A DNA stretch of 64,000 nt from a virus, in the IMG/VR virus record IMGVR_UViG_3300027869_000006, positions 1 through 64,000 of that record, one strand, 5' to 3'. Each line of letters starts with the position of its first letter. Positions within the stretch are counted from its first letter, which is position 1. The notes below the pieces were generated by a model. That model saw only the letters and a list, made by a program, of their open reading frames with translations. It did not search any database and was not told the origin of the DNA. The position numbers and the translations under genes are program-made. Below, piece after piece: positions 30,422-62,837 of this stretch.

Positions 30422-33400
30422 ATGGCAGGGAGCGACTTTTCTCTTGGTACGGCCTCAATTGGACTTGGGGTGAATACTGATGGATTAACCTCCGGGTTTG
30501 CGCGTGCCAAGGAGATGGTTGGGAGTTTTGGCGGTGCCGTCGGCGGACTACTGATTGGTGCGACCGTCGCAGCCGTTGGGCTAGGCGCTGCGACGGTCAA
30601 GATGGCAGGTGATTTTTCCGCATCTATGACCCAACTCGTGACGGGTGCTGGCGAATCACAATCCAACCTCAAACTCGTCTCCGATGGTATCCTCCAAATG
30701 GCCGGGACGACCGGCACCTCGACCAAAGACCTCGCAGCAGGTATGTATCTCATCGAGAGTAGCGGCCAGCATGGTGCACAAGCCCTGACAACGCTCCAAG
30801 CCGCCGCCGAGGGCGCAAAGGTAGGTGCAGCCTCGCTCGCCGAGGTTGCCAATGGCGTGACCACCATCATGACCGATTACGCCAGTGCGAATGTGACCGC
30901 CGCCAATGCCACCAATGCCCTCATCGAGGGTGTCGCGCTCGGCAAAGTCCACCTGGGTGACCTCTCTACTTCGATGGCAACCGTACTTCCTACGGCCTCC
31001 GCGCTTGGGATCGGACTCAATGATGTGATCGGGGCCATGTCCACCATGACCGCCGAAGGGGTTCCTGCCGCCAATGCCGCCACCTACTTGCGGCAAACCA
31101 TGATGTCCCTCGAAGCCCCGGCCAGTGCGGGGGCCAAAGCCATTGCTGCCATTGGACTGACGACCGCACAAGTTAGCGACGAGATGAAGGTCTCTCTCCC
31201 CGGTACCTTGCAGATGATTATGGATCACCTGGCCGCGACGTATACGGTCGGGTCCCCGCAATATATTGAAGCCCTCAAAAATATCGCCGGGGGGTCGAAG
31301 CAGATGCAAGGGATGCTCGACCTGACGGGGACGCACCTGGCCATTTTCAAGGATGATGTGCAAGCCGTTGCCGATCAAGTGAAGGCAGGCGGCGATCAGA
31401 TTGCTGGCTGGACGCTGGTCCAGGGCGACTTCAATCAGAAGATGGATGAGGCAAGAGGGGTCATCGAAGCCCTTGGCATCAAGATCGGGTCGGTACTTTT
31501 GCCGGTGGTCTCGCAACTGATGGGGTGGTTGACCCCGATGGTTTCCACGATTGGAGATCATCTGGTCGGGGATGTGACCAACCTGGCCGATGCCTTCCAG
31601 TCCGTCTTTGATCCGATGAGCCAGGTGCAGAGCGTGGCTAAACCCCTGGCCGATACCTTCGATCATGACGCAGCAATGGTGGACAACTTGACTGGAGCCA
31701 TGAACCCCTTCCAGCAAGCCATGTTCAATCTCAAGCCGGACCTCGCGGATATCGGCGGGATGTTCAAGACGGTCGGCGATGTCGTCTTCAACCAGGTCAT
31801 TCCAGCCGTGGTGGGGTTGGCCCAAAAAGTTGAGCCCATCATCACCGATTTCTTCAACTGGGATGAGAAAACCCACTTCATCAGTACCACCCTACACGAT
31901 CTGGGCGGGTTCGTGAGCGCCGTGGCCGGTGATATCGGCAATGACCTCGTCCCACCCATCAGGGCACTGCTCGGACATCTCGAGAACTGGCTTTCTTCTT
32001 CCAACATGATCCATGATGCCCTTGGATTCCTGGCAGGGGCGATTGGGGTTGTCTCCAGTGTACTGGGAACATTGATCGGCTGGGTTGGCGACTTCGTGGG
32101 GGGGCTGGAAAAGGGCAATCCCCTGGCGGTGGCACTTGGCATTGCGCTGGTGACGGTTGGCACGGCTATTGCGGGTATCAAGCTGACGGAGTTTGTGCTT
32201 GGGCTCCAGAACGCCTTTACGCAGGCTGGCGGACTCAGCGGTATCCTGGAGAAATTTATCAGTGATACCTTCCCCAATCTCGCTCGCTCCCTCGGCCTGG
32301 TCAAGACGGCTGAAGTTGAGGTCGGAACCACCGCCGAAACGACGATGGCCGAGGGAGTGGCCACGGGGGCGACGGCGGCAGAGGCTTCCCTCGCGGGTAT
32401 CGGTACTACTGCCGAAACCACGATGGCTGAAGGGGTCGCTACGGGGGCGGTAGAGTCAGTAACTTCGCTCGCGGAAGTCGGGACACAGGCAGAGATCACC
32501 GCCGATACCGTCAAGACCTCCTCACTGAGTATGGCCGCATCCATTGGCTTGATTGGGGGCGCGATTGGACTCGTCCTGGTTGCTATCCCGCTCATCCAAC
32601 AAGGGCTCGCTGCCACCAAACAGAATATGGATGATACCGCCAAAGGCTTGAGTACGCAGATTGATGCCGCTGCCTCCAAGATTCATGACTCCTTTATCCC
32701 GGAAATAGCGAACGTCAATACCATGTCGGTGGCCCAGATCAGTGACATGAAAGCGAAGATCGTCAGTGAATTGGAACAAATCACCGGCAAGAGTCAGAGT
32801 GATGCCGAAAAAATGGCGAATGACTGGATTTATGGGACACAACAAATGCAGACCCAGGTGTCTGCCAATCTTGCCACCATGTCACAGCAGGCCATCCAAT
32901 CCGCGCAGCAACTCGTCAGTGGCGTCGAGCAGGCCCTCGCACAAATGCAGACCAATTCCGCCTCTGATATGGAGAGCATGAAGGAAGGCATCACCTCAGA
33001 ACTGATCTCAACCTACCATCTCTCCTATAGCACCGCGACCCAGATGTCAAGCCAGTGGAGCGCTGAACTGCAAAAGATGCAGAATGCCTCCCCGCAGCAG
33101 ATGGCCAGTATGCGCCAGCAGATGATTGATGAGCTTCAGAAAACGCTTGGGCTTTCCACCCAGGACGCCACGAACATGGCCGATCAGTGGATTGCCCAGG
33201 TCATGCGTGAGAAAGATCAGACCACCTATAACGTCATGCAACTGCATGACCAGGTTGCCCAACAACTCCAAGATACCGAGCACCTTTCAGCCTCAGCGGC
33301 GTCATCGATGGCCGATCAGGTCATTGGATCAGTCCAACATATGAAGGATATGGGCATCTCCGATACCGTCGCCATGAAGATTGCCATCGCGGAGGTCATG

Positions 33401-58426: not shown

Positions 58427-58560
58427 AGTGGTTTTTCAGATGGGTCCATCAAGTGATGTCTTTGTTACACAAGAGGCGCAGCTATAGCGAAACGATCCTG
58501 GCTGAGAAGCCGATCCGTTACTATCGACTCGATGGAAGTGACACAACACGTGAGCAATGA
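58423..58560 (+). CDS. small ORF carrying a LamG N-terminal remnant
   Basis: YSETILAEKPIRYYRL resembles YRTTILADNPLYYNR in the 52720 product. Confidence 0.4.
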   Translation: MKWFFRWVHQVMSLLHKRRSYSETILAEKPIRYYRLDGSDTTREQ

Positions 58561-59275
58561 AGAGTGCAAACTGATTGCATACCAACTCTATGATGGTGAT
58601 CTCCCCATGCAAATCGTTCCGGCACCGCGCAAACGGCAGTGGATGGATCAGACGCCACAGAGTTTTGCGAACCGTTGCCTCCCGCTCTTACTGGGAAATG
58701 CGAGCGGCTGGTGGCTCTTGAACACGCACGAGATACAGGTGACCTGGAACGGCGGCACTGATCTCTCCGCGCTCACCATCGCGGGTCGGGGTAGTTCGGA
58801 GACCGGCTATGCACTGAGCCATTTTGGTAACGGTCTCTTAACTTGGAATATTCCCCTGCTCTTTTCCACGCCCCCTGGATATAATTTGCTGGTACGTGGC
58901 CCTGCAAACTGGCCCAAAGACGGGGCATACGCACTGGACGGGCTTGTGGAGACAGATCACGCTGTGGCGACATGGACCATGAACTGGAAGATGACGCGGC
59001 CTGGCCTGACCGTCACCTTTGCCAAGGGCGAACCGATAGCACAAATCGTGCCACAGAAGCGTGGAGAACTAGAGACATTCACCCCGCAAGTACGGAACAT
59101 CAGAGAGGCACCAGAGTTACAAGCTGCATACAATGCGTGGGCATCTAGTCGCTCAACATTCAATATGGAACTGAAGAGACCAGGGTCAGAGGCAGTGAAG
59201 CGGCAATGGCAAAAGGATTACTTCCAAGCATCCCATCAAACAAAGGTCGCATTGAAGGAGTTCACAACTCCATGA
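58532..59275 (+). CDS. DUF6065-like protein
   Basis: R.WMD.T...FANRCLPL, SHFG.G, GPANWPKDG, VETD, WQKDYF. Confidence 0.75.
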   Translation: MEVTQHVSNEECKLIAYQLYDGDLPMQIVPAPRKRQWMDQTPQSFANRCLPLLLGNASGWWLLNTHEIQVTWNGGTDLSALTIAGRGSSETGYALSHFGNGLLTWNIPLLFSTPPGYNLLVRGPANWPKDGAYALDGLVETDHAVATWTMNWKMTRPGLTVTFAKGEPIAQIVPQKRGELETFTPQVRNIREAPELQAAYNAWASSRSTFNMELKRPGSEAVKRQWQKDYFQASHQTKVALKEFTTP

Positions 59276-59311: not shown

Positions 59312-59896
59312 ATGGCAACGACACCGACAAAAACCCCGAAGCAGCAAGCCTCACTCGCAGGCGTCTGGCAGGGCATTGAGGCACCAATCATCGGTATCCT
59401 CCTCTCCCTTGCCGTAGCTATTCAGCAGTATTTTAGTACCCATAGTGCCCCAAATTGGGGAGAACTGGGAATGATCCTGTTCCCGACCGTCATTGTTGGT
59501 ATTGTGCAAGCACTCAAGCAGTTCAATGCAACACTCGGGCAGGCATCAGTTCCCATCGTCACCGTCCCGCCGCCCGCACCGGTTGTCTCACCATCCGACA
59601 TTGCGGCAGCGATACGACAGCAGGTACCAGGACTGGTCATACAACAGCCACCGGCACCACCGTCGTTCATTGCGCCGTCAGTGCCACCAGGAGGATACGA
59701 TACGACGCTGGTCCAACCCCTCTCATTCGCCCCTCTGACCACGCCTGCCCAGCCACAACAACCGTACACGTGGTCACAGCCAGAACCATCCCCGACACTC
59801 ACGACACCTGCGCCAGTAATTACGCCGGTATTGTCACTGCCAAGTACGTTTCCGCAAACACTCGATTTACCAATCGTACGACCACAAATTGAGTAA
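59312..59896 (+). CDS. putative holin-like 2-TM protein with Pro-rich tail
   Basis: GGAGG RBS; two TM segments; near endolysin. Confidence 0.6.
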   Translation: MATTPTKTPKQQASLAGVWQGIEAPIIGILLSLAVAIQQYFSTHSAPNWGELGMILFPTVIVGIVQALKQFNATLGQASVPIVTVPPPAPVVSPSDIAAAIRQQVPGLVIQQPPAPPSFIAPSVPPGGYDTTLVQPLSFAPLTTPAQPQQPYTWSQPEPSPTLTTPAPVITPVLSLPSTFPQTLDLPIVRPQIE

Positions 59897-59897
59897 T

Positions 59898-59935
59898 AAT
59901 AAAGGGTACTACATCTGCATGTAGTACCCTTTATT
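59898..59935. terminator. bidirectional intrinsic terminator
   Basis: Perfect 17-bp IR AATAAAGGGTACTACAT-ctgc-ATGTAGTACCCTTTATT between convergent units. Confidence 0.85.
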
Positions 59936-59941
59936 CATCCC

Positions 59942-60129
59942 ATACCATACCGCATCCCGCCGGACTGCACCCCACCCAGCCTTGCCAGACATTACCCCGC
60001 ATCGCCACGCCTTACCCCACCGAACTACACCTTACCAACCAGACCATGCCGAACCCGACCGGACCACGCTATACCGTACCTTACCTTACTGAACCCAGCC
60101 AAGCCGGACCTCACCATACCTACCGTGCC
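59942..60129 (-). repeat. GGY-NN pentamer array C (38 units), putative guide RNA
   Basis: Minus strand GGCAC GGTA GGTAT GGTGA GGTCC GGCTT...; 5-nt period with two 4-nt slips. Confidence 0.9.
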
Positions 60130-60130
60130 A

Positions 60131-60349
60131 TTAAGCGTATCGTGTTTGGTCTGTCTCCCAGTTCACTAAACGTACAGGTGTCACATCTAAGTCTGTGATA
60201 GGAATGCCATACTTTTCTTCAGCTAAACTCAGTCCTTCCTGAGCATCACTAGCGGTTATCTCACCCACTATAGGCACCTGCTGCTTTCTTAGCTTGGCAT
60301 GCACGGTAGTGTCATGTCCCTTATACCAAACATCGAACCTATGCAACAT
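60131..60349 (-). CDS. 72-aa accessory protein coupled to the Cas7-like gene
   Basis: TAATG overlap at 60347-60351. Confidence 0.65.
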   Translation of the reverse strand: MLHRFDVWYKGHDTTVHAKLRKQQVPIVGEITASDAQEGLSLAEEKYGIPITDLDVTPVRLVNWETDQTRYA

Positions 60350-60897
60350 TACTTCACCTTTTCCCATGACACAAGAGCAAATCTCCCATACGGCCCTTTC
60401 TTTGCAGGACGGAAGTCACCAATGCCAACAAGTCGCCCTGCATCGGTGAGTATGTCACGGATAAGACGTTCACCAACTAGATCGGTATCAATCTGAACAT
60501 CAAACTCCATATTCCACTCATCGAACATTGGCCTGTGGCGTAGAATACGCCCCCCAGTCGCTTTAATGACAACAGCCCGTGAGTCCACATGCCATTCCCC
60601 TACCAGAGGAATTTCAAATGGGCTAACATAGACCCCTGCCGCTACATCAGTTGTCGCAGCCCTCCGTCCAATTTTGTGTCGTGATGCTGCTGCAATCATT
60701 GACTGCCGAATATTCTCAGCCGGATAGAATGGGCTATGTTCATTGGTATACAGGCGACTTGCCGCATCTTCATGAGGAGCCGGATATTCTTTCCGACCAT
60801 GTGTTCCTGAAGTTGCTTCCTCTGCCGCTGCCTCATGAAAACGATTCACGATGAGCGGCGTCAAACTCGTAATGTTGACCTTGTACGTTACAATCAT
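60349..60897 (-). CDS. minimal Cas7/RAMP-like protein (182 aa)
   Basis: YKVNITSLTPLIVN, YPAENIRQSM, RHRPMF..W, C-terminal G-loop GRLVGIGDFRPAKKGPYGRF; AAAGGA RBS before ATG 60897. Confidence 0.75.
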   Translation of the reverse strand: MIVTYKVNITSLTPLIVNRFHEAAAEEATSGTHGRKEYPAPHEDAASRLYTNEHSPFYPAENIRQSMIAAASRHKIGRRAATTDVAAGVYVSPFEIPLVGEWHVDSRAVVIKATGGRILRHRPMFDEWNMEFDVQIDTDLVGERLIRDILTDAGRLVGIGDFRPAKKGPYGRFALVSWEKVK

Positions 60898-60960: not shown

Positions 60961-60977
60961 GCGAAACAAAATGAACA

Positions 60978-61161
60978 AAACCATACCAGACCGGACCTCG
61001 CCAAACCCGGCCTTGCCAGACCGGGCCTTGCCAGACCGGGCCAAACCCGACTACACTAGACCTCATCATGCCACACCTCCCATACCATACCCATCCTTAC
61101 CGAACTGCGCCAGACCGCAACGTACCAGACCGCGGCAAGCCGGGCCGGACCCAACCTAACC
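60978..61161 (-). repeat. GGY-NN pentamer array B (37 units), putative guide RNA
   Basis: Plus strand NN-RCC units AAACC ATACC AGACC GGACC TCGCC...; one 4-nt slip at 61078-61081. Confidence 0.9.
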
Positions 61162-61172
61162 TATTCCTCAGC

Positions 61173-61370
61173 AAACCATGCTATACCCCACCTGACCGTA
61201 GCACTCCTTCCAAACCGCACCATACCCAACCAAGCAGGACCCCGCGTCACCGCACCTGATCGGGCCATACCCCACCTGACCAAGCCGTGCCTACCTTGCC
61301 GCACCAAACCTCACCTCACTCAGTCTTGCCTCGCTGGACCTAGTCGCACCGAACCTGACCTTGCCGTGCC
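61173..61370 (-). repeat. GGY-NN pentamer array A (40 units), putative guide RNA
   Basis: Begins ATGGCACGG like array C; two 4-nt slips; 11-nt linker to array B. Confidence 0.9.
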
Positions 61371-62005
61371 ATAATCCTGCTATAGGCCAATTTCACGCAG
61401 AACTCAACGTCATTCCATACCTGGGAGCCAGTGAAGCGAAGAACGTACCAGCCTTGATCTTCAATCGTATGCTGTCGCATATAGTCTCTATTTCGGTCTC
61501 TCTTGTGACTATGGAACGCTTGCCCATCAAGTTCGATTACTATCTTTGCTTCAACATGGGCAAAGTCTACACGATACTTACTAATCCGATGCTGTCGCTC
61601 AAGAGGGATATCTGGATACAGCAGGCACCATGCTTCATAAAAGGCTTCCTCGATGGGACTTCCATTCTTGACGGATTGCTGAATTTCCCGTAAACGATTA
61701 CGAGCCTCATTAAGTGCAGCCTCACGTTGTTGATTAGCAAGTCGCAAGGCTTCTACTCGCTCTGCTTCTAGTGCTTGACGACGTTCTAGGGCCTGCTCTC
61801 GCTTCTCCCGAATGGTTGCTACTTCAATCTCTCTCTGGACAGATTGCTGATGCTCATTCGCACGACGCTTCAACTCCCTAGCTTCCTGAATCATACTAGC
61901 TTTCTCTGCCGCAAGTTGACGTTGTATGGCAAGTTCATGCTCTCTGTCAGCTTGAAGTTTTCGTTGTTGTTCTTGATAGTCGTTGAATGCTTGCCAGTCC
62001 ATCAT
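61340..62005 (-). CDS. coiled-coil plus DUF559/Vsr-like PD-(D/E)XK endonuclease
   Basis: SPIE..QHRISKYRVDF..IVIELDGQAFH..RD..R..GWYVLRFTGSQV. Confidence 0.85.
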   Translation of the reverse strand: MMDWQAFNDYQEQQRKLQADREHELAIQRQLAAEKASMIQEARELKRRANEHQQSVQREIEVATIREKREQALERRQALEAERVEALRLANQQREAALNEARNRLREIQQSVKNGSPIEEAFYEAWCLLYPDIPLERQHRISKYRVDFAHVEAKIVIELDGQAFHSHKRDRNRDYMRQHTIEDQGWYVLRFTGSQVWNDVEFCVKLAYSRIMARQGQVRCD

Positions 62006-62187: not shown

Positions 62188-62216
62188 ATTTTACTACAAA
62201 CAAGTGTTCTTGTCAA
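62188..62216 (-). promoter_or_regulatory. consensus sigma70 promoter of the Cas7-like cassette
   Basis: TTGACA(62216-62211)-N17-TAAAAT(62193-62188). Confidence 0.8.
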
Positions 62217-62276
62217 GAGGAAAAGAAGACGCCCTTGACACAAGCATATACTAAGAGCAGAAGGGGGAATTTTTCT

Positions 62277-62837
62277 TTGGAACGCGGGTCCGTTATTCTT
62301 TTTGAGAAGGATGGCAGTCTCTTCAATTGGCTCATCACGAAAGCAACTCATGGTCCCTATGTCCATGTGGAAATTTGCCTGGGCGAGGAACGCCTGATCG
62401 GTGCTCACGGTAACCGTCGCGGCATCTATGAGCGTGATTGGGCCGATGCACCTTCGTTAGTGACGGAGGTCTCTCTCTCCCCCTATGCCGATGAAGAGCA
62501 CATCGAGCAGGCCCTTACCTGGGCGCAAGAGCAACAGGGGCATCCCTATGGATGGTGGGATATCGCCAGTCAGTCCATCAAGTTCTTGTGGCCAACGACA
62601 CCGCTCCGGTTCAGCAAGTCAGACGCATGGGGGTGTGCAGACTATGTGACCCGCTATCTGATACAAGCAGGGGTGGCCTTGCCAGAAGACTTCATGGACC
62701 CTGGGAAAAACTCGCCCAACGATATTGGACGGTTGTTCCATCTCGTTCCACAACGGCCACAACGCATCAGAAAACGGGAGAGAGAGTTGAGGAAAGGTCA
62801 TGCCATTGCCGCATTTGCCGCCTCCAGACGAGGATGA
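62277..62837 (+). CDS. permuted papain-like (YiiX/YaeF-type NlpC/P60) amidase/peptidase
   Basis: His before Cys: GPYVHVEI, GHPY, WGCADYV, SPND; TTG start after AGGGGG. Confidence 0.7.
   Translation: MERGSVILFEKDGSLFNWLITKATHGPYVHVEICLGEERLIGAHGNRRGIYERDWADAPSLVTEVSLSPYADEEHIEQALTWAQEQQGHPYGWWDIASQSIKFLWPTTPLRFSKSDAWGCADYVTRYLIQAGVALPEDFMDPGKNSPNDIGRLFHLVPQRPQRIRKRERELRKGHAIAAFAASRRG

What the first reader, a model, noticed from the sequence alone, without database searches (positions are those of the whole stretch)
60041..60120. Array C proximal segment decodes to the start of the right-flanking gene
Plus-strand NN of the 16 units are AG AT GA CG GG AC AT GT TT TT GA CA AA GG TC AT, i.e. x-M-[ED]-R-G-T-[IM]-V-[LF]-[FL]-[ED]-[QH]-[NK]-G-S-[IM]. 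Positions 62274-62321 read tct TTG gaa cgc ggg tcc gtt att ctt ttt gag aag gat ggc agt ctc = M-E-R-G-S-V-I-L-F-E-K-D-G-S-L. Only 6/16 dinucleotides are identical, but 14/16 second codon positions match. Every amino-acid difference is conservative (S/T, V/I, I/V, K/Q, D/N, L/I), and AT aligns with the TTG start. This is a second, independent decode in the same orientation and frame.
Basis: partly seen in the sequence, partly recalled or inferred. Interest (0 to 1): 0.9.

Follow-up and report, generated by a model that had tools for sequence, protein, structure and literature searches.

The report
VIPR guide spelling the neighbouring gene
The 80-base stretch is one guide RNA of a phage VIPR system (a CRISPR-like RNA-guided DNA binder first described in 2026). 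Its variable letters spell the first 15 codons of a relative of the gene beside the cassette rather than the phage's own copy, which fits a weapon against sibling phages with built-in self-immunity.

Summary
In detail: 14 of 16 second codon positions and 6 of 16 dinucleotides match.

The arrays and the 182-aa gene between them are a VIPR system (bioRxiv 10.64898/2026.04.26.720920). The gene is a Vipr RAMP protein, and the arrays are (GGY-NN)n vrRNA arrays of the published staggered, 1-nt-overlap type. A DUF559 nuclease gene accompanies them.

By nucleotide identity the resident site is no target: 62.5%, below the published 80% threshold and within shuffle range. At amino-acid level, however, this guide's best hit in the whole 109.8-kb phage genome is the start of the right-flank gene (2 of 1000 shuffles reach it). 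The sibling guide's best hit is the 3' end of the left-flank gene (0 of 1000). The decoded peptide also fits the N-terminal motif of independent members of that peptidase family.

The guide is therefore most likely aimed at a diverged allele of the neighbouring gene in rival phages. No such allele was found in any collection.

The cassette is compositionally foreign and inverted. RNA-guided homing is not excluded.

Earlier notes of this scan (unchecked) report the same flank-allele logic on other DNA (e1-5991930, e1-5842232, e1-5745270).

The parts
60036..60120 (-). vrRNA guide B (the finding): 17 in-phase GGY-NN units. The 15 units at 60046-60120 spell M-[ED]-R-G-T-[IM]-V-[LF]-[FL]-[ED]-[QH]-[NK]-G-S-[IM].
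   Evidence: 1-nt overlap with the next guide at 60036, as in the published staggered arrays
59937..60036 (-). vrRNA guide A: 20 units. The 13 units at 59972-60036 spell P-[HQ]-[FL]-[SR]-[FL]-P-S-T-[FL]-P-[DE]-T-[FL].
60975..61375 (-). Upstream vrRNA array of about 79 pentamers in several in-phase runs (two of them 84 nt). No in-frame self look-alike was found.
60352..60897 (-). vipr gene: 182-aa stand-alone RAMP/Cas7-like protein
   Evidence: Family profile against PDB 36pp_D 'SUSP1 Vipr protein', E 3.6e-36; single sequence E 6.6e-8; AF2 pLDDT 95; Foldseek top hits are Csm3, E 4e-8; phrog_4652
61340..62005 (-). Accessory (vap-like) gene: coiled coil plus a DUF559/Vsr-like endonuclease domain. 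Its 3' end runs into the array leader.
   Evidence: Pfam PF04480 E 1.3e-15, PF18741 E 3.9e-12; translation; same gene order in L128
62008..62181 (-). First ORF of the cassette operon, 57 aa, no family
60131..60367 (-). 78-aa ORF between vipr and array C, no family
62188..62216 (-). Promoter-like site TTGACA-17-TAAAAT that would drive the cassette
   Evidence: 11 of 12 consensus positions
59898..59935 (.). Perfect hairpin between the left gene's stop codon and array C; a likely two-way terminator
   Evidence: read from the sequence
62277..62321 (+). Resident look-alike of guide B's target: the first 15 codons (TTG start) of the right-flank gene 62277-62837, a permuted papain-like (YiiX/C92-type) peptidase
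   Evidence: fold: 3kw0 E 2.7e-4, 2if6
59825..59863 (+). Resident look-alike of guide A's target: codons 172-184 of the left-flank Pro-rich gene 59312-59896, 31 nt before its stop codon

Best explanation
The segment is one guide of a staggered vrRNA array in a phage-borne VIPR system, transcribed on the minus strand as (GGY-NN)n.

Established for the VIPR family in the cited papers, not tested on this locus:
- Vipr protomers coat the RNA, hide each GGY and present each NN.
- The NN pairs bind double-stranded DNA at two of every three bases.

Shown here:
- Under that rule the guide specifies 15 codons that begin with AT(G).
- These codons encode a peptide 60% identical and otherwise conservatively similar to the N-terminus of the gene just right of the cassette, in frame and starting at its start codon.
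- The resident copy matches only 20 of 32 informative bases.
- The neighbouring guide does the same for the 3' end of the left-flank gene.

Inferred:
- The real target is a diverged allele of that gene in competing sibling phages.
- The resident copy is spared.
- Rival DNA is marked on both sides of the spot where this cassette sits.
- It is then silenced, or cut by the co-transcribed DUF559 nuclease.
For: VIPR identity:
- A profile of 83 homologues hits the solved SUSP1 Vipr, E 3.6e-36. The fold is Cas7/Csm3-like.
- 86 of 120 loci found purely by the DNA pattern (RCCNN)x12 carry a homologue beside the array, on the GGY strand in all but one contig-end fragment (L088).
- NN positions carry 1.95-1.99 bits of entropy against 0.46-0.62 for CC.
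- The 1-nt overlaps between guides match the published staggered arrays.

The code:
- The papers show the NNx rule, wobble-aligned targets, an 80% identity criterion and no self-targets.
- They also show guides on early codons of relatives' genes, with lower self-match scores.

This guide:
- Its genome-wide best amino-acid-level hit is 62274/62277, reached by 2 of 1000 shuffles. The sibling guide's best hit is 59825, reached by 0 of 1000.
- Of 169 real guides from other loci scanned against this genome, one reaches 56, and that one is a low-complexity, out-of-frame artefact.
- At equal nucleotide identity both flank sites stand far above all other sites.
- Mismatches fall almost entirely on codon position 1 or are Ser/Leu codon-family switches. 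This is how two coding alleles differ, not how a decaying non-coding copy would differ.
- The decoded peptide fits independent family N-termini, p < 0.005.

Other support:
- No guide has a self-target at or above 0.8 identity.
- The cassette has GC3 of 0.41 against 0.52-0.59 in the flanks, and it is inverted.
- Six guides in other VIPR loci show the same sub-threshold, protein-level match to a resident gene (z > 5, about 0.3 expected). One of them matches its own vipr gene.
Against: - No allele matching the guide was found. The exact 15-unit pattern and both 8-unit halves were scanned in IMG/VR, and a 10-unit core in JGI metagenomes and GTDB genomes.
- The gene family has only 43-49% identical relatives on record.
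- By nucleotide identity alone the site is ordinary.
- Nucleotide-level tests show no flank enrichment over 72-120 other loci.
- The two other DUF559-linked loci (L128, L073) show no flank-directed guide.
- Transcription, processing and binding were not tested here.
It was, however, applied genome-wide and to both guides without choosing sites.
Confidence: 0.72

Rival explanations
1. RNA-guided homing. The two guides direct the DUF559 nuclease to cut cassette-free sibling genomes just left and right of the empty site. Repair from the cassette-bearing genome then copies the cassette in, together with its mismatched (immune) flank alleles.
For: - Both look-alike sites lie next to the cassette: 35 nt from the left hairpin and about 60 nt beyond the promoter on the right.
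- A nuclease gene is co-transcribed.
- The cassette is compositionally foreign and inverted.
- Two guides landing on the two immediate neighbours, out of a roughly 110-kb genome, is unlikely without a locus-specific reason.
Against: - No cassette-free relative or empty site was found; only the source contig was recovered.
- The implied alleles differ strongly from the resident ones (12 of 32 informative bases), which is poor substrate for homologous repair right at the break.
- L128 and L073, which have the same nuclease, show no flank-directed guides.
- Cleavage is unproven.
Confidence: 0.25
2. Chance resemblance. The guide has some other target and the similarity to the neighbouring gene is a coincidence.
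For: Total NN identity of 20/32 is reached by 53% of shuffles locally. It is exceeded elsewhere in the genome, 21/34 at two sites. There is no nucleotide-level enrichment in other loci.
Against: - Genome-wide amino-acid-level p is 0.002 for this guide and below 0.001 for its neighbour.
- Both hits are in frame in the two genes that border the cassette.
- The match to the family N-terminal motif is independent of the resident gene.
Confidence: 0.04
3. Self-regulation. The complex binds the resident flank genes despite the mismatches and tunes or insulates transcription of the lysis region around the cassette.
For: The sites are at a gene start and a gene end, directly beside a convergent/divergent cassette. 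Published VIPR acts as a transcriptional roadblock on either strand.
Against: Published work found that disturbing NN pairing abolishes silencing. No natural self-match reaches 80%. Here identity is 62-65%.
Confidence: 0.06
4. Relic of guide origin. The guides were copied from neighbouring DNA by an unknown local acquisition process, and the similarity is historical rather than functional.
For: How VIPR guides arise is unknown; the papers give no mechanism. The targets sit next to the arrays here and in several other loci, at distances of 70-750 nt.
Against: The differences are protein-preserving: position-1 changes and Ser/Leu family switches. That is not expected from drift of a non-coding copy. 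The GGY scaffold is well kept.
Confidence: 0.08

Closest known systems
VIPR systems (Vipr + vrRNA + vap), type II of Escherichia phage SUSP1 and a Pseudomonas fulva prophage (bioRxiv 10.64898/2026.04.26.720920; structures 10.64898/2026.04.26.720927)
   Same: A stand-alone RAMP protein. GGY-NN pentamer RNA arrays flanking the gene on its strand. NNx (1-nt skip) reading with the skip at the wobble position. Phage-borne. No self-target at 80% or more.
   Different: Only about 30% local sequence match to SUSP1 Vipr. Staggered arrays without a recognisable pseudoknot tail. The accessory gene is a DUF559 nuclease with a coiled coil, not a DNA-binding vap1. The guides resemble the cassette's own neighbours.
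Nuclease-associated VIPR types III and V (same paper)
   Same: A predicted nuclease sits beside vipr, suggesting target destruction rather than repression alone.
   Different: Those types are described as enriched in cellular defence islands and aimed at viruses. This one sits in the lysis region of a 109.8-kb virus record. Its type could not be assigned without the authors' tree. The main text names HNH, not DUF559.
Solo and VIPR+ phage vrRNAs that target relatives' vipr genes and vrRNAs (bioRxiv 10.64898/2026.10.15.759431)
   Same: Guides lie on early codons of a gene the carrier also owns, with a lower self-match than rival-match, so autoimmunity is avoided.
   Different: Here the genes concerned are not VIPR genes. 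They are the two ordinary phage genes that border the insertion, and the rival alleles are not on record.
Free-standing homing endonuclease genes of phages (for example T4 seg/mob genes), and Vsr-like homing endonuclease I-Bth0305I. Cited from my own knowledge, not tested.
   Same: A nuclease gene inserted between conserved phage genes. The target lies in the neighbouring gene of relatives that lack the insert. The carrier's own copy is protected by sequence differences.
   Different: Specificity here would come from RNA guides rather than from the protein. Neither cleavage nor presence/absence polymorphism is shown.
Class 1 CRISPR backbones (Cas7/Csm3) and CRISPRi
   Same: RAMP fold (Foldseek E 4e-8). 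Protein filament on a guide RNA. Periodic interruption of pairing.
   Different: The period is 5 nt with 2 paired, not 6 nt with 5 paired. There are no repeats and spacers, no Cas6, Cas1 or Cas2, and no PAM reported.

Membership tests
VIPR system | Vipr protein: minimal single-RRM RAMP related to Cas7 | tested here: met
   Profile against PDB 36pp_D 'SUSP1 Vipr protein', E 3.6e-36; single sequence E 6.6e-8; AF2 pLDDT 95 and Foldseek top hits Csm3
VIPR system | Tandem GGY-NN (YNNGG) units beside vipr on the same strand, with a conserved scaffold and hypervariable NN | tested here: met
   103 units in 7 in-phase runs, 79 of them exact RCC. Entropy is 1.95-1.99 bits at NN against 0.46-0.62 at CC. 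The strand link holds in 93 of 94 loci; the exception (L088) is a vipr fragment at a contig end.
VIPR system | Array architecture of a described kind (staggered, 1-nt overlapping vrRNAs) | tested here: met
   Runs 59937-60036 / 60036-60120 and 61163-61207 / 61207-61291 share one base. Three runs are 84 nt apart. Paper fig. S18 legend.
VIPR system | Accessory vap gene with a DNA-directed function | tested here: met
   DUF559/REase_MTES_1575 domain. The same neighbour is present in L128 and L073. It was not matched to a named vap1-6.
VIPR system | Guides read targets by the 1-nt skip rule, skip at wobble, with natural targets at 80% NN identity or more | tested here: inconclusive
   Frame and wobble alignment are met at both flank look-alikes. 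No site at 80% or more was found in any collection.
VIPR system | No self-target at 80% or more | tested here: met
   The best self identities of the 7 guides are 0.59-0.78, within shuffle range.
VIPR system | vrRNAs are expressed, processed and bound by Vipr | not testable with these tools
   Only the DNA source run is on record, kept as contigs.
Free-standing homing endonuclease cassette | Nuclease-bearing insert between conserved genes, foreign in composition | tested here: met
   GC3 of 0.41 against 0.52-0.59, and inverted orientation
Free-standing homing endonuclease cassette | Relatives lacking the insert carry a cleavable site near the insertion point | not testable with these tools
Free-standing homing endonuclease cassette | The nuclease cuts the target | not testable with these tools
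   Needs biochemistry.

The most novel reading that the evidence does not exclude
The cassette is an RNA-programmed homing element. Two vrRNA guides mark both sides of the empty site in sibling phages, the DUF559 nuclease cuts there, and repair copies in the cassette together with flank alleles recoded through conservative changes and Ser/Leu six-fold codon switches. Those switches are the one route of escape that a wobble-skipping code leaves open.
Probability: 0.25. Interest if true: 0.85.

Novelty: new variant of a known kind. Interest (0 to 1): 0.55.

Why it matters
VIPR and its gapped code were published in 2026, so the code itself is not new. What this locus adds is an arrangement absent from the passages I read and the term searches I ran in the three preprints. 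A phage-borne VIPR with a Vsr-like nuclease has two adjacent guides that spell relatives of the two genes bordering its own insertion site, while the resident copies stay below the targeting threshold.

This links a weapon to an immune allele at one locus. If cutting is shown, it would be the first RNA-guided analogue of phage homing endonucleases.

It also shows that six-fold degenerate codons (Ser, Leu, Arg) and conservative first-position changes are a route for escaping a wobble-skipping guide. The papers present the skip as closing off escape.

Methodologically, scoring guides at amino-acid level finds such relations where the published nucleotide-identity score does not.

Tried and rejected
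**Nucleotide-level nulls**
- Whole-window scan.
- Own flanks against reversed flanks in 120 loci.
- Unit-order shuffles in 72 loci.
- A test restricted to gene starts.

These showed no general enrichment and at first pointed to chance. The amino-acid-level test overturned that reading.

**Target hunts**
- Exact 15-unit pattern in IMG/VR: no hits.
- The two 8-unit halves in IMG/VR: 53 hits. The best is 25/32, in an unrelated JAB-domain gene of an AT-rich phage (L174), judged chance.
- 10-unit core of guide B in JGI metagenomes and GTDB genomes: no hits.
- 10-unit core of guide A: none in IMG/VR. One hit, antisense in a bacterial AsmA-like gene (L189), matches only 10 of 13 units and is judged chance.

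**Relatives**
- Relatives of the right-flank gene, the left-flank gene and the DUF6065 neighbour: none close.

**Reads**
- Laying the single source run (contigs only) showed no cassette-free form and no variant.

**Other checks**
- Rfam: nothing.
- Guide 61207-61291 against 36347 (z = 5) is out of frame with the real 1471-aa gene and rich in W/C. Rejected.
- Foreign-guide hits from L071 and L125 are perfect low-complexity repeats. Rejected.
- Cross-targeting between this locus and the other 127 loci: none.

Full report
**What is there.** The plus strand carries two tracts of 5-nt units of the form NN-RCC, at 59937-60130 and 60975-61375. They are the only such tracts in the 109,768-bp IMG/VR virus record of which the window is the first 64 kb. 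In 103 in-phase units the two N positions carry 1.95-1.99 bits of entropy, while the CC positions carry 0.46-0.62.

The tracts lie in a minus-strand cassette with the following parts.
- A TTGACA-17-TAAAAT promoter at 62216-62188.
- A 57-aa ORF.
- A 221-aa coiled-coil plus DUF559/Vsr-like nuclease.
- The long array.
- A 182-aa gene (phrog_4652).
- A 78-aa ORF.
- The short array ("array C").
- A perfect hairpin at 59898-59935.

The cassette genes have GC3 of about 0.41, against 0.52-0.59 for the plus-strand genes on either side. Those neighbours are an amidase, a DUF6065 protein and a Pro-rich membrane protein on the left, and a 186-aa protein on the right. The cassette is therefore a foreign, inverted insert.

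**What kind of thing it is.** In 86 of them an ORF homologous to the 182-aa protein lies beside the array, on the strand where the array reads GGY-NN in all but one contig-end fragment (L088). The eight homologues found by protein search are likewise flanked by arrays.

A profile of 83 homologues hits the solved "SUSP1 Vipr protein" (PDB 36pp_D) at E 3.6e-36. The AlphaFold model (pLDDT 95) is most like Csm3/Cas7. This is a VIPR system (Viral Interference Programmable Repeat), described in three 2026 preprints.

The preprints report the following.
- vrRNAs are built of YNNGG repeats.
- Vipr protomers form a filament that hides GGY and presents NN.
- The NN pairs read double-stranded DNA with one base skipped between them.
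- The skipped base mostly falls on the codon wobble position.
- Natural targets are called at 80% NN identity or more.
- No self-target passes that threshold.

They also describe "staggered" arrays in which neighbouring vrRNAs overlap by 1 nt. That matches the runs here: 59937-60036 / 60036-60120 and 61163-61207 / 61207-61291, with three 84-nt periods.

**The observation.** Independent gene callers also start the gene at 62277, and the homologues align from residue 1.

**Is it chance?** At nucleotide level the case is weak.
- 20/32 informative bases is below the published threshold.
- That value is reached by 53% of unit-order shuffles within +-2.5 kb. The second-position statistic alone gives p = 0.037.
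- The guide has equal or better total identity at other genome sites.
- Across 72-120 other VIPR loci there is no nucleotide-level excess of matches to own flanks or to gene starts.

I therefore first leaned towards coincidence. However, a guide aimed at a homologue of a resident gene should resemble that gene at protein level, not base for base.

I scored each NN as the residues coded by NNx (BLOSUM62, six frames, both guide orientations).
- This guide's best hit in the entire genome is 62274/62277. Its score is 56, against shuffles of 41.6 +- 3.3, with 2 of 1000 reaching it.
Its score is 57, with 0 of 1000 shuffles reaching it.
- Of 169 real guides from other loci scanned against this genome, one reaches 56, and that is a low-complexity, out-of-frame artefact.
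- Among genome sites with the same nucleotide identity, the two flank sites score 54 and 57. The rest score 21.5 +- 8.3 and 16.8 +- 11.1.

The mismatches are first-position changes giving S/T, V/I, I/V, K/Q, D/N and L/I, or Ser (AGY/TCN) and Leu (CTN/TTR) family switches. That is how two coding alleles differ.

Finally, the decoded peptide fits the N-terminal motif of other members of the right-flank family, independently of the resident gene. There are 161 homologues. Examples are the N-termini of P0055, P0025 and P0075, and the result is p < 0.005 against shuffled guides.

**Reading.** The segment is a guide whose specified target is the first 15 codons of a diverged allele of the gene next to the cassette. 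The resident allele lies below the targeting threshold. The sibling guide stands in the same relation to the last codons of the left neighbour.

Precedent exists for guides on early codons of relatives' genes with lower self-match scores. Six guides in other loci show the same protein-level, sub-threshold match to a resident gene, one of them to its own vipr gene.

What is not shown: any real allele that matches. All collection scans came back empty or with chance hits. The flank genes have no close relatives on record. The single source run shows no cassette-free form.

**Why both neighbours?** Two guides landing on the two genes that border the insert calls for a locus-specific reason. One possibility is exclusion of sibling phages at this locus. 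The other is RNA-guided homing, with the DUF559 nuclease cutting both sides of an empty site. I rate homing at about one in four, for three reasons: cutting is untested, the implied alleles are strongly diverged, and the two other DUF559-linked loci (L128, L073) show no flank-directed guides. In the passages I read and the term searches I ran, none of the three preprints mentions homing, DUF559 or escape through six-fold codons.

**Relation to earlier notes of this scan.** VIPR loci have been noted in over 300 genomes. Several notes on other DNA describe guides aimed at sibling alleles of cassette-flanking genes, including one with a DUF559/Vsr-like nuclease. These are unchecked AI notes. They agree with the reading here but are not used as evidence.

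**Verdict.** The system and its code are already published. The flank-allele arrangement with a Vsr-like nuclease is a new variant.

Noticed in passing
L063, L035, L118, L058, L040, L085 (positions): Six guides in other VIPR loci resemble a resident gene within 70-1700 nt at protein level (z 5.5-8.8) with 65-81% NN identity. The mismatches include Arg, Ser and Leu codon-family switches. In L118 the gene is its own vipr gene. In L063 it is the start of the gene just downstream, inside the cassette.
   Followed up: partly
L012, L013, L019, L021 and 30 other loci (list): 34 of 128 array-bearing stretches show no vipr homologue in the DNA fetched. Some are at contig ends. Others may be solo vrRNA arrays of the kind described in the third preprint.
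   Followed up: no
window 62277-62837: The right-flank protein folds like the permuted papain-like cysteine peptidases 3kw0 and YiiX (C92 type). It has 161 small homologues that share a conserved N-terminal strand motif, M-x-x-G-D-[LI]-[ILV]-[LF]-[FY].
   Followed up: partly
window 58532-59275: A DUF6065 protein (Pfam E 8e-84) sits between the amidase endolysin and the Pro-rich membrane protein of the lysis region. Its role in lysis is unknown.
   Followed up: no
window 60121-60131 and 61361-61371: Both arrays begin, in RNA sense, with the same 11-nt leader ATGGCACGGYA. The DUF559 ORF ends inside the leader of the long array.
   Followed up: no
L125 (about 1390 in flipped coordinates) and L071 5147: The pattern scan also picks up perfect pentanucleotide repeats such as (GAGCC)n and a two-unit alternation. 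These are low-complexity tracts, not informative guides.
   Followed up: partly
L174 163-2014: An AT-rich phage contig encodes a JAB/MPN-type protein followed by an E1/ThiF-like protein. It was hit only by chance by half of the guide pattern.
   Followed up: no
window 32322-32474: A 78-nt tandem duplication (2 copies, 76% match) reported by Tandem Repeats Finder. Not examined.
   Followed up: no
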